Shown one piece after another: positions 843-5,095 of a DNA stretch of 7,708 nucleotides (position 1 is the first letter of the stretch; each line of letters starts with the position of its first letter). Both the position numbers and the translations under genes were made by a program. Source of the DNA: a virus (Duplodnaviria; Heunggongvirae; Uroviricota; Caudoviricetes); IMG/VR virus record IMGVR_UViG_2663763413_000006. The stretch is one strand, 5' to 3'. Below the pieces are notes generated by a model. That model saw nothing but the letters and a program-made list of their open reading frames with translations. It was not told the DNA's origin and ran no database searches.

Positions 843-3183
843 ATGATGAAAGTATTAATTGTTGAAAGCGAGTTTCTCCATCAAGACACCTGGGTCGGTA
901 ACGCCGTTGAGCGTCTGGCAGATGCTTTAAGCCAGCAAAATGTTACCGTGATTAAATCCACCTCCTTTGATGATGGTTTTGCCATTCTCTCTTCAAACGA
1001 AGCCATTGACTGCCTGATGTTCAGCTATCAAATGGAACATCCGGACGAACATCAAAACGTCAGACAATTGATCGGTAAGCTTCATGAGCGCCAACAAAAC
1101 GTGCCGGTCTTCCTGTTGGGCGATCGGGAAAAAGCCCTCGCCGCAATGGACCGGGATCTGCTGGAGCTTGTCGATGAATTCGCCTGGATTCTGGAAGATA
1201 CCGCCGACTTTATCGCCGGACGCGCCGTTGCCGCGATGACCCGCTACCGCCAGCAGCTATTGCCGCCACTGTTCAGCGCGCTGATGAAATATAGCGACAT
1301 CCATGAATATTCCTGGGCAGCGCCAGGCCACCAGGGCGGCGTTGGTTTTACCAAAACACCCGCCGGACGTTTCTACCATGACTATTATGGTGAAAATCTG
1401 TTCCGCACCGACATGGGTATCGAACGCACTTCCCTCGGTTCTTTGCTTGACCATACTGGCGCATTTGGCGAAAGCGAAAGATATGCCGCACGCGTATTTG
1501 GTGCCGATCGCTCCTGGTCGGTAGTCGTCGGTACTTCCGGCTCTAACCGCACCATCATGCAGGCTTGCATGACCGATAACGAGATAGTAGGTCGGTGACC
1601 GTAACTGCCAGAAATCCATCGAAAAAGCCATAAAGCCAACAAACAAGAAACCAGGCTAACAGGCGCGAAACCGGTCTACATGGTGCCAAGCCGCAACCGC
1701 TACGGCATTATCGGGCCAATCTATCCGCAGGAAATGCAACCTGAAACCTTGCAGAAGAAAATCAATGAAAGCCCGCTGACCAAAGACAAAGCCGGGCAAA
1801 AACCGTCTTACTGCGTGGTGACCAACTGCACCTATGACGGCGTGTGTTATAACGCTAAAGAAGCACAGGATCTGCTGGAAAAAACCTCCGATCGTCTGCA
1901 CTCTGACGAAGCACTGGTACGGCTATGAACGTTCCAACCCGATCCATGCCGATCACGAGCCATGCGACAGCTCTATGCCGATCAACCCGATCTATGCCGA
2001 TCACTATGCCATGCGCGGCGAACCTGGCGATCACAACGGTCCTACCGTTTTCGCCACCCACTCCACCCACAAACTGCTGAATGCGCTGTCACAGGCCTCT
2101 TATATTCATGTACGTGAAGGTCGTGGGGCGATTAACTTCTCCCGCTTCAACCAGGCCTACATGATGCATGCCACCACCTCCCCGCTGTATGCCATCTGCG
2201 CATCCAACGACGTGGCGGTGTCGATGATGGACGGCAACAGCGGCCTGTCACTGACCCAGGAAGTGATCGACGAAGCGGTTGATTTCCGTCAGGCGATGGC
2301 GCGGCTATATAAAGAGTTCACCGCTGACGGTAGCTGGTTCTTCAAACCGTGGAACAAAGAAGTCGTCACCGACCCACAAACCGGCAAAACCTATGACTTT
2401 GCTGACGCACCAACCAAACTGCTGACCACCGTTCAGGACTGCTGGGTCATGCATCCGGGCGAAAGCTGGCACGGCTTCAAAGATATTCCGGATAACTGGA
2501 GTATGCTCGACCCGATTAAAGTCAGCATCCTTGCTCCGGGAATGGGTGAAGATGGTGAACTGGAAGAAACCGGTGTTCCGGCGGCGCTGGTCACAGCCTG
2601 GCTTGGTCGCCACGGCATTGTGCCTACCCGTACCACTGACTTCCAGATTATGTTCCTGTTCTCTATGGGCGTGACCCGTGGGAAATGGGGGACTCTGGTT
2701 AACACCCTTTGCTCCTTCAAACGCCACTATGATGCCAACACACCGCTGGCGCAGGTGATGCCGGAACTTGTTGAACAATATCCTGACACTTACGCGAACA
2801 TGGGGATTCACGATCTGGGTGACACCATGTTTGCCTGGCTGAAAGAAAACAACCCTGGCGCACGGTTGAATGAAGCCTATTCCGGCCTACCGGTGGCGGA
2901 AATCACCCCGCGTGAAGCGTACAACGCGATTGTCGACAACAATGTCGAACTGGTATCCATTGAAAATCTGCCAGGACGTATCGCGGCAAACTCAGTTATC
3001 CCGTATCCGCCAGGAATCCCGATGCTGCTGTCTGGTGAAAACTTCGGCGATAAAAACAGTCCGCAAGTAAGTTATTTACGCTCGCTGCAATCCTGGGACC
3101 ATCATTTCCCTGGATTTGAACACGAAACAGAAGGGACAGAAATTATTGACGGTATTTACCACGTTATGTGTGTGAAAGCGTAA
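843..3183 (+). pseudogene. adiA: Biodegradative (acid-inducible) arginine decarboxylase AdiA, reading frame broken into three ORFs (843-1598, 1680-1928, 1834-3183)
   Basis: N-terminus MMKVLIVESEFLHQDTWVGNAVERLADALSQQNVTVIKSTSF... and C-terminus ...GTEIIDGIYHVMCVKA match E. coli AdiA as I recall it. In-frame stops TGA 1596-1598 and TAA 1602-1604 lie in a scrambled segment 1581-1658, after which frame 0 resumes (TGAKPVYMVPSRNRYG). A +1 shift near 1911-1916 moves the native reading to frame 1 (WYGY...). A 48-bp in-frame insertion at about 1936-1983 is a diverged partial copy of the following sequence. Confidence 0.85.
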
Positions 3184-3199
3184 CCACTATTCCGCTGAA

Positions 3200-3226
3200 G
3201 GCGTAATTGTTAAATAACATTACGCC
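3200..3226. other. 27-nt near-perfect palindrome (hairpin-capable) immediately downstream of the adiA stop
   Basis: ggcgtaat tgttaaataac attacgcc: 8-bp perfect outer stem (3200-3207 with 3219-3226), a further 4 bp after one mismatch. No T-run follows, so it is not a canonical intrinsic terminator. Confidence 0.4.
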
Positions 3227-3300
3227 GCCTGGCTTGAGGCCTTTTAAGTATGGCAACGTTTTCATAAAAATTGCTGCAAACAAAAAATGTCATGCTTTTT

Positions 3301-3328
3301 GCGCGGTCCCACCCCGCGCTTTTTTTTG
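3301..3328 (+). terminator. Rho-independent terminator between adiA and adiY
   Basis: GC-rich stem gcgcgg (3301-3306) pairing with ccgcgc (3314-3319), 7-nt loop tcccacc, followed directly by a run of 8 T (3320-3327). Confidence 0.6.
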
Positions 3329-3518
3329 CCTGTTATTTATCCTTTTTTTAGCCTGTAAAAAAATATGTACATGAGAAATTACTATAAAAATTTGTAATAT
3401 TAGTAAAACTCGTTATTTTTATGCATGTTTATATTCATCATACAATTATATAACCATTTCCCGGTATCGCTTCGCTTTAGCGAGAACTGGTCTTTTATTC
3501 GCACTCAGGAGTACATGT

Positions 3519-4443
3519 ATGAGGATTTGCAGCGACCAACCTTGTATTGTTTTATTGACTGAAAAAGATGTCTGGATAAGGGTGAATGGGAAAGAACCTA
3601 TTAGCCTTAAAGCTAACCACATGGCGTTATTAAATTGTGAAAATAATATTATCGACGTCTCCTCTCTTAATAACACTTTGGTTGCTCATATTAGTCACGA
3701 CATCATCAAAGATTACCTCCGGTTTCTGAATAAAGATCTCTCGCAAATACCAGTATGGCAACGTAGCGCTACGCCCATCCTCACCCTTCCATGCCTGACG
3801 CCAGACGTCTTTCGCGTTGCCGCGCAGCATAGCATGATGCCCGCTGAAACTGAGTCAGAAAAGGAACGAACACGTGCATTATTATTCACTGTGCTATCCC
3901 GTTTTCTCGACAGTAAAAAATTCCTTTCACTAATGATGTATATGTTTCACTAATGATGTATATGTTACGTAATTGTGTAAGTGACAGCGTTTATCAAATT
4001 GTGTAAGTGACAGCGTTTATCAAATTATTGAAAGCGAAATCCACAAAGACTGGAATCTTAGTATGCCAGCAAGAGACTGGAATCTTAGTATGGTAGCCAG
4101 TTTGGAATCTTAGTATGGTAGCCAGTTGATGATGTCTCAGCCCAAGTCTGTTAAAGAAAAAGCTGAAAAGCGAAAACACCAGTTATAGCCAAATAATCAC
4201 CACCTGCCGCATGCGTTATGCCGTAAATGAATTAATGATGGACGGTAAAAATATTTAATAATGGACGGTAAAAATATCTCTCAGGTACGCTAAAAATATC
4301 TCACAGGTATCACAGTCCTGCGGCTACAACAGTACGTCGTACTTTATTTCTGTCCTTAAAGACTTATACGGTATGACGCCGCTGCATAAGGTATGACGCC
4401 GCTGCATTATGTTAGTCAGCACAGAGAACGCACTGTCGCCTGA
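3519..4443 (+). pseudogene. adiY: AraC-family activator AdiY, disrupted by multiple short tandem duplications and in-frame stops
   Basis: ORF 3519-3953 reads MRICSDQPCIVLLTEKDVWIRVNGKEPISLKANHMALLNCENNIIDVSSLNN..., matching recalled E. coli AdiY, then terminates early at TAA 3951-3953 inside a duplicated segment. Downstream sequence still encodes AdiY-like peptides in shifting frames (e.g. [56 protein letters not shown]) up to the native-looking stop TGA 4441-4443. Good RBS aggag 8 nt upstream of the ATG. Confidence 0.8.
3925..4409 (+). repeat. Cluster of short direct tandem duplications inside adiY
   Basis: Read directly: tttcactaatgatgtatatg x2 (3925-3944, 3945-3964); attgtgtaagtgacagcgtttatcaa x2 (3972-3997, 3998-4023); gactggaatcttagtatg(gtagccagtt) in three overlapping copies (4048-4065, 4075-4102, 4103-4127); atggacggtaaaaatat x2 (4238-4254, 4261-4277) with a third partial copy near 4291-4310; ggtatgacgccgctgcat x2 (4370-4387, 4390-4407). 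Confidence 0.85.
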
Positions 4444-4579
4444 TTTTTAACCTTAACGAAGAGCTATATTAATAACGGCATCAGCGATAACCCGGCCGAT
4501 AATAATTCAACTATCGAATGCAGGCGTATGATATGACGTAATTTATTGTCACGAAGCTCGCCTTCGCAGGAGTTTAATT

Positions 4580-5095
4580 ATGTCTTCGGATGCTGATGCT
4601 CACAAAGTGGGCTTAATCCCCGTCACCCTGATGGTGTCGGGGAATATTATGGGGTCAGGTGTTTTTCTGTTACCTGCAAACCTGGCCTCCACTGGCGGGA
4701 TTGCTATTTATGGATGGTTGGTGACGATTATCGGTGCGCTGGGGCTCTCGATGGTATACGCCAAAATGTCGTTCCTCGACCCAAGTCCTGGTGGTTCTTA
4801 CGCTTACGCCCGCCGCTGCTTTGGCCCGTTTCTCGGTTATCAAACCAACGTCCTCTACTGGCTGGCCTGCTGGATCGGCAATATCGCCATGGTGGTCATT
4901 GGCGTAGGATATTTAAGTTACTTCTTCCCGATTCTGAAAGATCCATTGGTATTAACCATCACCTGCGTCGTGGTGCTGTGGATCTTCGTCCTGCTGAACA
5001 TTGTCGGTCCGAAAATGATCACCCGCGTACAGGCCGTTGCTACCGTGCTGGCGCTGATCCCCACCATCGGCAGTGGGAGGGCCGTATTTGATTAG
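4580..5095 (+). pseudogene. adiC: Arginine:agmatine antiporter AdiC, 5' portion only (about 165 of roughly 445 codons), truncated at a junction with phage-like DNA
   Basis: [65 protein letters not shown]...[16 protein letters not shown] matches recalled E. coli AdiC N-terminus (APC-family transporter). RBS aggag 7 nt upstream of the ATG. Sequence diverges after about 5065 and stops at TAG 5093-5095; the remaining two-thirds of the gene is absent. Confidence 0.85.

What the first reader, a model, noticed from the sequence alone, without database searches (positions are those of the whole stretch)
843..5095. Entire arginine-dependent acid-resistance module (adiA, adiY, adiC) appears non-functional
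The decarboxylase, its AraC-type activator and the antiporter are each independently disrupted, so the system is lost as a unit. Loss of decarboxylase-based acid or virulence-antagonising pathways is a known pathoadaptive theme in Shigella and enteroinvasive E. coli (cadA is the textbook case). Absence of arginine-dependent acid resistance in Shigella flexneri has been reported as I recall, but I cannot verify that here.
Basis: inference. Interest (0 to 1): 0.45.

Follow-up and report, generated by a model that had tools for sequence, protein, structure and literature searches.

The report
Mostly assembly errors; one real prophage insertion
The apparent three-gene decay of the arginine acid-resistance locus is mostly an error of a low-quality draft assembly: only the transporter gene adiC is really broken, by an ordinary Mu-like prophage insertion in a non-Shigella E. 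coli clone.

Summary
The window is the whole 7,708-bp contig AOQJ01000101.1 of draft E. coli assembly GCA_000397385.1. The adiA and adiY lesions are not biological. The adi segment has 0 differences from E. coli D8 over 4,262 bp. All differences sit in clusters made of backward jumps of 17-26 nt (local re-copies), with no deletions. The substitutions are transversion-rich and packed next to the jumps. Their products exist on this one contig among about 15 billion proteins. Three sibling drafts of the same clone have the same kind of stutter at different sites and are clean where the window is damaged. Four re-assemblies from raw reads are clean across adiY, adiC' and the junction.

The adiC truncation is real. 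A transposable Bcepmuvirus prophage (100% identical to phage PhiKM) starts at its natural terminus at 5089, and the same junction occurs in 11 other contigs. IS4 in melR (a 23-bp stub at 294-316) also appears real. The traC piece (1-293) is probably a mis-join.

The background is E. coli whose listed exact or near-exact relatives are urinary, dog and poultry isolates, not Shigella. Arginine-dependent acid resistance is probably lost, but through one random phage insertion, not three hits. Low interest.

The parts
1..293 (+). Internal fragment of F-type plasmid traC (type IV secretion ATPase), joined without homology to the next piece. Probably a mis-join.
   Evidence: 100% identical to traC of many E. 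coli plasmids. The plasmid sequence continues differently after 293. Sibling contig L135 simply ends inside the IS4 stub.
294..316 (+). Last 23 bp of insertion sequence IS4 (outer terminus ...CTGATCGGCATTA), marking an IS4 insertion in melR.
   Evidence: Multi-copy in many genomes. Lies at the end of annotated IS4 copies, with a 12-bp target duplication starting CAGCCA. A full IS4 sits at the identical melR position in strain 7CC. The same stub and site start sibling contig L135.
317..647 (+). 3' part of melR (C-terminal AraC-type HTH domain), cut off from its 5' part by IS4.
   Evidence: Exact match to D8 melR 3' end. Pfam HTH_AraC/HTH_18 on the 107-aa ORF.
846..3183 (+). adiA (biodegradative arginine decarboxylase), carrying two artefactual lesion clusters at 1583-1658 and 1903-1981. 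Intact in clonal siblings.
   Evidence: Siblings L114, L115 and L135 are exact at these sites. The 251-, 82- and 402-aa products are singletons, source NCBI only.
3519..4443 (+). adiY (AraC-type activator), carrying artefactual tandem re-copies at 3947-3996, 4051-4102, 4246-4290 and 4370-4389, plus nearby substitutions. Intact in clonal siblings.
   Evidence: TRF periods 20, 26, 25, 23, 22 and 20 in the window, none in the reference. Logan contigs from 4 runs, plus L114, L115 and L135, are exact here. The duplication string is absent from metagenome and viral collections.
4580..5088 (+). adiC 5' part (first 168 native codons of 445), truly truncated. An artefactual error cluster lies at 5064-5080.
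   Evidence: The clean 169-aa junction product P0011 is found on 11 other contigs.
5089..7708 (-). Terminus and early-operon end of a transposable Bcepmuvirus (BcepMu/Mu-like) prophage: Mor 5252-5641, GemA/gp16 5613-6062, DUF2786 protein 6487-7170, and small ORFs.
   Evidence: 100% identical to phage PhiKM. The same terminus TGATTAGACTTGAG... abuts different host genes in other strains. Transposase, MuB-like ATPase, Gam and late genes are present in complete copies.

Best explanation
The window is a short, poorly assembled draft contig from an E. coli clone. Two things in it are biologically real. First, a transposable Mu-like (Bcepmuvirus, PhiKM-type) prophage inserted into adiC after codon 168, which separates the rest of the antiporter gene and most likely abolishes arginine/agmatine exchange and hence arginine-dependent acid resistance. 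Second, an IS4 insertion in melR. The breaks in adiA and adiY, and the small error cluster just before the prophage junction, are consensus/assembly errors. The assembler strung together successive sequence pieces whose 17-26-nt overlaps were not merged, which produces local tandem re-copies, and the ends of those pieces carry base-call errors. The 293-bp traC piece at the left end was probably abutted in the same way. In the living strain adiA and adiY are most likely intact. Shown: source contig; lesion anatomy; privacy of the lesions; intact siblings; reproducible junction. Inferred: the exact software cause, and the acid-resistance phenotype.
For: Source: the window equals the whole contig AOQJ01000101.1 of GCA_000397385.1.
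Anatomy: 4,262 bp of clean blocks have 0 differences from D8. Every discontinuity is a backward jump of 17-26 nt and none is a deletion. There are seven tandem arrays in the window and none in the reference.
Statistics: all 23 substitutions lie within 50 nt of an insertion of 6 nt or more (P about 6e-21). Transitions:transversions are 8:15, against 41:10 for natural D8-vs-7CC divergence in the same region (Fisher p = 3.6e-4). Natural differences are spread out and 42 of 47 coding ones are at third codon positions.
Privacy: the 171-, 251-, 402-, 144- and 82-aa products each occur on one contig, source NCBI only.
Siblings with the same prophage junction: L114 has intact melR, adiA and adiY. L115 (AOQB01000082.1) and L135 (IMG/VR) have their own jumps (-21 to -27; -21, -24, -13) at other sites and are exact at the window's lesion sites. 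The window is exact at theirs.
Read-based assemblies: Logan contigs from SRR653724, SRR653737, SRR653739 and SRR653745 are 100% identical to the clean composite across adiY, adiC' and the junction.
Junction: it is identical in five siblings. The prophage terminus is the same one that abuts other genes in other strains. The prophage is 100% identical to PhiKM, genus Bcepmuvirus.
Against: I could not map the strain's own raw reads, and I cannot prove which SRA run belongs to GCA_000397385.1. Absence of the lesions from read-level data is therefore shown for siblings, and only inferred for this isolate. The Logan contigs do not cover the adiA lesion sites; those are covered only by sibling drafts L114, L115 and L135. 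The software step that produced the stutters is not identified. The other prophage end and its target-site duplication are not in the window. No phenotype data are available.
Confidence: 0.87

Rival explanations
1. All three genes are truly and independently pseudogenised, reflecting relaxed or pathoadaptive selection against the Adi system.
For: The deposited sequence has stops and frameshifts in all three genes. Truncated AdiA/AdiY products are annotated in some Shigella sonnei records, so adi decay does occur elsewhere in nature.
Against: There is zero background divergence from D8, yet eight dense lesion clusters. The jumps are all backward and of uniform size, and the substitution spectrum looks random. 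The lesions are private to this contig. Clonal siblings sharing the same rare prophage and IS4 insertions have intact adiA and adiY, and carry different stutters. The source is not Shigella.
Confidence: 0.03
2. The whole contig is junk or a chimera, and even the adiC-prophage join is an artefact, so nothing in the adi locus is really disrupted.
For: The traC-to-IS4 join looks non-biological. An error cluster sits immediately before the junction. No complete genome has this junction.
Against: The identical junction, at the exact natural phage terminus, is present in 11 other contigs. These include 4 shown Logan assemblies from raw reads and an IMG/VR contig.
Confidence: 0.03
3. The stutters are real, but come from a minority of damaged or rearranged molecules, for example error-prone template-switching synthesis near a replicating transposable phage, and the assembler captured them.
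For: Low-fidelity copying followed by short back-jumps resembles template-switch repair products. The lesions lie in host DNA flanking a transposable prophage, and none lies in the 2.9 kb of traC plus prophage sequence.
Against: Sibling L115 also has a small lesion at D8-reference position 2988-3001 in melR, about 4.5 kb from the phage end. No read-based assembly shows any such lesion. No known bacterial process gives only 13-27-nt back-jumps. A pipeline artefact explains the same facts more simply.
Confidence: 0.03

Closest known systems
[quoted passage not shown]
   Same: Same genes, order and neighbours. The clean sequence is identical to E. coli D8 over 4,262 bp.
   Different: Here adiC is split after codon 168 by a prophage. 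The breaks in adiA and adiY are deposited-sequence errors, not biology.
Insertional gene inactivation by transposable phages (Mu, BcepMu; Escherichia phage PhiKM, PQ738613.1, genus Bcepmuvirus)
   Same: 100% identity to PhiKM over 2,620 bp. The natural terminus abuts host DNA, and the element sits at many different chromosomal sites in other strains. It is found in 641 of 5,426 complete genomes.
   Different: This particular target, adiC, is seen only in this clone. The other end and the target duplication were not observed.
Pathoadaptive 'black hole' loss of cadA in Shigella/EIEC (Maurelli et al., as listed in the references of PMC4229854)
   Same: An amino-acid decarboxylase-type acid-stress pathway is inactivated.
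   Different: The source is not a Shigella/EIEC genome. There is no convergence across lineages. It is a single random phage hit, not multiple lesions or deletions, and there is no evidence that the product antagonises virulence.
Draft-assembly join artefacts (unmerged short overlaps at contig or gap-closure joins giving spurious tandem duplications; from general knowledge of assemblers)
   Same: Only backward jumps of 13-27 nt, error-rich piece ends, lesions private to each draft, and absence from read-level re-assemblies.
   Different: The responsible program and step could not be identified from the data available here.

Membership tests
Functional Adi (AR3) module | Conserved melR-adiA-adiY-adiC arrangement | tested here: met
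   Collinear with D8 positions 3001-7533.
Functional Adi (AR3) module | Full-length AdiA (about 755 aa) and AdiY (253 aa) | tested here: inconclusive
   Broken in the deposited contig. Intact in clonal siblings L114 and L135, and the breaks bear artefact signatures. This isolate's own reads were not available.
Functional Adi (AR3) module | Full-length AdiC antiporter (445 aa) | tested here: not met
   Native reading frame ends after codon 168 at the prophage terminus. The same junction is found in 11 other contigs.
Pathoadaptive gene loss of the Shigella/EIEC type | Source is a Shigella/EIEC lineage | tested here: not met
   0 of 4,262 differences from E. coli D8. The equal-scoring top hits are isolates from humans (one named UPEC132), dogs, poultry and wastewater. 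The invasion plasmid cannot be checked from one contig.
Pathoadaptive gene loss of the Shigella/EIEC type | Convergent, independent inactivation in several lineages or several independent hits in the pathway | tested here: not met
   The junction is absent from 5,426 complete genomes and seen in one clone only. The extra hits in adiA and adiY are artefacts.
Transposable (Mu/BcepMu-like) prophage insertion | Same element terminus joined to unrelated host sequences in different genomes | tested here: met
   TGATTAGACTTGAG... abuts ycaL, a lambdoid prophage and other genes.
Transposable (Mu/BcepMu-like) prophage insertion | DDE transposase, MuB-like ATPase, Gam, GemA, Mor and late genes | tested here: met
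   Mor and GemA are in the window. The rest are in complete copies and in PhiKM.
Transposable (Mu/BcepMu-like) prophage insertion | Short target-site duplication at both ends | not testable with these tools
   The other prophage end is not in the window or in the fetched sibling contigs.
IS4 insertion | IS4 terminal inverted repeat abutting a typical target | tested here: met
   23 of 23 nt match the IS4 end. The flank begins CAGCCA, as at the yicI and other sites. The identical site is occupied in 7CC and in sibling L135.
IS4 insertion | Complete 1.4-kb element with transposase | tested here: not met
   Only a 23-bp stub is present. The contig switches to traC. This is expected when an assembly breaks at a repeat.
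Assembly artefact | Lesions not reproducible in independent assemblies of the same clone | tested here: met
Assembly artefact | No support for the lesions in the isolate's raw reads | not testable with these tools
   Read mapping is not available. The SRA run of GCA_000397385.1 was not identified.

The most novel reading that the evidence does not exclude
The clustered low-fidelity tracts followed by 17-26-nt back-jumps are real DNA. They would be products of an error-prone, template-switching synthesis acting on host DNA beside a replicating transposable (BcepMu-like) prophage, present in a subpopulation of molecules and captured by the assembler.
Probability: 0.02. Interest if true: 0.65.

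Novelty: not a real feature. Interest (0 to 1): 0.08.

Why it matters
It matters mainly as a caution. Apparent multi-gene "pseudogenisation" on a short draft contig can be produced entirely by assembly errors, so genome-decay or pathoadaptation claims need read-level support. The real residue is modest. One E. coli clone (closest listed relatives are human, dog and poultry isolates) carries a PhiKM-type transposable prophage inside adiC, and in part of the clone IS4 in melR. That predicts loss of arginine-dependent acid resistance and of melibiose regulation. This is an ordinary example of mutagenesis by a Mu-like phage.

Tried and rejected
1. Shigella/EIEC origin. Rejected: the clean blocks are identical to E. 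coli D8.
2. The 23 bp at 294-316 as end-joining 'filler' DNA. Rejected: it is the IS4 terminus.
3. A 'mini-Mu' lacking late genes. Rejected: the late genes lie beyond the repressor, transcribed divergently, and the element is a full Bcepmuvirus.
4. The 107-aa MelR ORF on 199 contigs as a marker of melR::IS4. Rejected: it arises in many frameshifted melR contexts.
5. Strain 7CC as a close relative. Rejected: 47 differences in 4,262 bp, so it has the same IS4 site in a different lineage.
6. The 466-aa AdiA ORF of sibling L115 appearing in Logan as evidence that its lesion is real. Rejected: those contigs are unrelated samples with other breaks and intact adiC.
7. The E. coli P0304816.4 adiA fragment as a sibling. 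It is unrelated, with a simple frameshift.
8. Literature searches for AOQJ and neighbouring accessions, the SRR runs, guessed strain names and PhiKM found nothing useful. The strain name remains unknown.
9. The corrupted junction string is absent from viral contigs.
10. The idea that the sequence is synthetic or machine-generated was considered early and dropped once the GenBank source was found.
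Full report
WHAT THE WINDOW IS. An exact-protein look-up shows that the window is the complete 7,708-bp contig AOQJ01000101.1 of the draft assembly GCA_000397385.1. It is a mosaic of unrelated pieces:
- 1-293 is an internal fragment of F-plasmid traC, 100% identical to many plasmids.
- 294-316 is the last 23 bp of IS4.
- 317-5088 is the chromosomal stretch melR'-adiA-adiY-adiC'.
- 5089-7708 is the end of a prophage carrying Mor, GemA and a DUF2786 protein.

CHECKING THE OBSERVATION. In the deposited letters all three adi genes are interrupted.
- adiA (846-3183) carries +1 nt at 1589, which gives a stop at 1596-1598. 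It also has 20 nt of junk at 1633-1652, +1 nt at 1913, and a 48-nt imperfect re-copy at 1934-1981.
- adiY (3519-4443) is frameshifted by a perfect 20-nt duplication at 3947, leaving 144 aa of 253. Re-copies of 26, about 52, about 45 and 20 nt follow.
- adiC (4580-) ends at 5095 after 171 aa, against 445.

ANATOMY OF THE LESIONS.
- The five clean blocks of the adi segment, 4,262 bp in total, have no difference from E. coli strain D8. A naturally diverged strain (7CC) differs at 47 positions over the same blocks.
- All differences from D8 fall in a few clusters. Read as a walk along the reference, every discontinuity is a backward jump of 17-26 nt. There is no forward jump or deletion, and some pieces between jumps are only 29-54 nt long.
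- Tandem Repeats Finder reports arrays of period 20, 26, 25, 23, 22 and 20, plus a weak period-10 array inside the 48-nt re-copy, in the window. It reports none in the reference.
- All 23 point substitutions lie within 50 nt of an insertion of 6 nt or more (P about 6e-21 under random placement). Most lie just upstream of a jump.
- Transitions:transversions are 8:15. The natural D8/7CC differences in the same region are 41:10, evenly spread, and 42 of 47 coding ones are at third codon positions (Fisher p = 3.6e-4).
- No such lesion occurs in the 2.9 kb of traC and prophage sequence.
This is the form expected when successive sequence pieces with error-rich ends are abutted without merging short overlaps. 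It is not what pseudogene decay looks like.

INDEPENDENT DATA.
- The aberrant products (171, 251, 402, 144 and 82 aa) each exist on exactly one contig among about 15 billion proteins, with source NCBI only.
- I predicted that an uncorrupted adiC/prophage junction would encode a 169-aa product ending ...LALIPIVGIAVFD. That protein (P0011) exists and lies on 11 other contigs.
- L114, a 40-kb contig, has intact melR (302 aa), adiA (756 aa) and adiY (253 aa), and the same adiC truncation.
- L115 is AOQB01000082.1, from the same WGS accession series. It has adiA split at a different place and its own backward jumps of -22, -21, -23 and -27 nt. It is exact at every lesion site of the window, and the window is exact at L115's lesion sites wherever the two contigs overlap; L115's two melR lesions lie outside the window.
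- Logan re-assemblies of the raw runs SRR653724, SRR653737, SRR653739 and SRR653745 are 100% identical to the composite 'D8 adi locus + prophage terminus'. They cover the adiA 3' end, all of adiY, adiC' and the junction.
- L135, an IMG/VR contig found with the clean junction string, begins with a 20-nt IS4 stub at the same melR position as the window. It then matches 4,348 bp exactly, covering all of adiA and adiY. It has private jumps (-21, -24, -13) inside adiC, where the window is clean.
- L115's lesion-specific products are also NCBI-only singletons. Its generic 466-aa downstream ORF occurs elsewhere only in unrelated samples.
- The most natural-looking lesion, the perfect 20-nt duplication in adiY, is absent from the metagenome and viral collections.
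So four deposited drafts of one clone each carry different stutters, and the read-based assemblies carry none. The adiA and adiY lesions, and the 5064-5080 cluster, are artefacts.

WHAT IS REAL.
- The junction GGGATTGCCGTATT|TGATTAGACTTGAG is identical in five siblings.
- The right-hand sequence is the natural terminus of an element that abuts ycaL in strain 4/1-1, a lambdoid prophage in DETEC-S566, and other genes elsewhere.
- Complete copies carry a DDE transposase, a MuB-like ATPase, Gam, GemA and Mor, and lysis/late genes on the far side of the repressor, transcribed divergently.
- The window's 2,620 bp are 100% identical to Escherichia phage PhiKM, genus Bcepmuvirus, recorded from a uropathogenic host.
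- The element occurs in 641 of 5,426 complete E. coli genomes. None has it in adiC.
A transposable phage has therefore inserted into adiC after codon 168 in this clone.
- The IS4 stub abuts melR at CAGCCAGATGCT. IS4 copies elsewhere also have flanks starting CAGCCA, with a 12-bp target duplication. A full IS4 sits at the identical position in the unrelated strain 7CC, whose adi genes are all intact. L135 shares the stub. melR::IS4 is thus real in part of the clone; L114 and L115 have intact melR.
- The traC piece has no homology-based or element-based reason to be next to an internal IS4 position. L135 simply ends there. I read it as a mis-join, with moderate confidence.

MECHANISM AND CONSEQUENCE (inference). 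The truncated AdiC keeps about 168 of 445 residues, so it cannot be a working antiporter. [quoted passage not shown] 2003, as listed in the references of PMC4229854). The clone is therefore predicted to lack this system even though adiA and adiY are intact. Because Mu-type phages insert nearly at random, no selection needs to be invoked.

The source is not Shigella or EIEC. There is no convergence across lineages. There is one real hit, not three. That same paper reports adiA, adiY and yjdE as expressed and anaerobically induced in S. flexneri. Either way, this is irrelevant to the present contig.

LIMITS. I could not name the strain or map its reads. The program step that produced the stutters is unknown. 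The adiA lesion sites are covered by sibling drafts, not by the Logan contigs. The other prophage end was not seen.

VERDICT. The triple decay is not a real feature. What remains is an ordinary insertional inactivation of adiC by a known type of transposable prophage, plus an IS4 in melR. Interest is low.

Noticed in passing
window 1-316: An internal traC fragment (F plasmid) is joined directly to a point 23 bp from the end of IS4. There is no homology and no element boundary on the traC side. This is probably an assembler mis-join. Sibling contig L135 ends inside the same IS4 stub instead.
   Followed up: partly
window 294-330; L111 about 9001-9169; L109 1061-1140 and 2441-2560: IS4 sits at the identical melR position in the window's clone and in the unrelated strain 7CC (1.1% diverged). 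IS4 flanks at yicI, and at a site next to an aminoimidazole riboside kinase gene, also begin CAGCCA. This suggests a strong IS4 target preference and a melR hot spot.
   Followed up: partly
L114 6053-6068: This sibling contig has its own small error at the prophage terminus. The inserted letters CTGGTTCCG come from the adiC sequence that lies just beyond the insertion site, as if reads from the other junction or from uninterrupted adiC had leaked into the consensus.
   Followed up: no
L134 (PQ738613.1) 20200-20577: The PhiKM GenBank record is permuted so that both prophage ends meet inside it. It carries a short ORF annotated as 'Fe2+ ABC transporter permease protein 2' between the tail fibre gene and Mor. 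This is probably host flank retained in the phage record.
   Followed up: no
protein clusters (P0035, P0041, P0050, P0095): Truncated AdiA and AdiY products are annotated in Shigella sonnei records; for example, a 132-aa AdiY occurs on 25 contigs.
   Followed up: no
L120, L122, L123, L125, L129: Several other genomes show melB, melA, melR and adiA all chopped into many small ORFs. These are either truly decaying (Shigella-like) genomes or noisy long-read assemblies.
   Followed up: no
window 5089-7708; The PhiKM-type Bcepmuvirus prophage is present in 641 of 5,426 complete E. coli genomes at many different sites (ycaL, cbrA, a TonB-dependent receptor gene, inside other prophages). It therefore looks like an active, widespread transposable phage of E. 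coli.
   Followed up: partly
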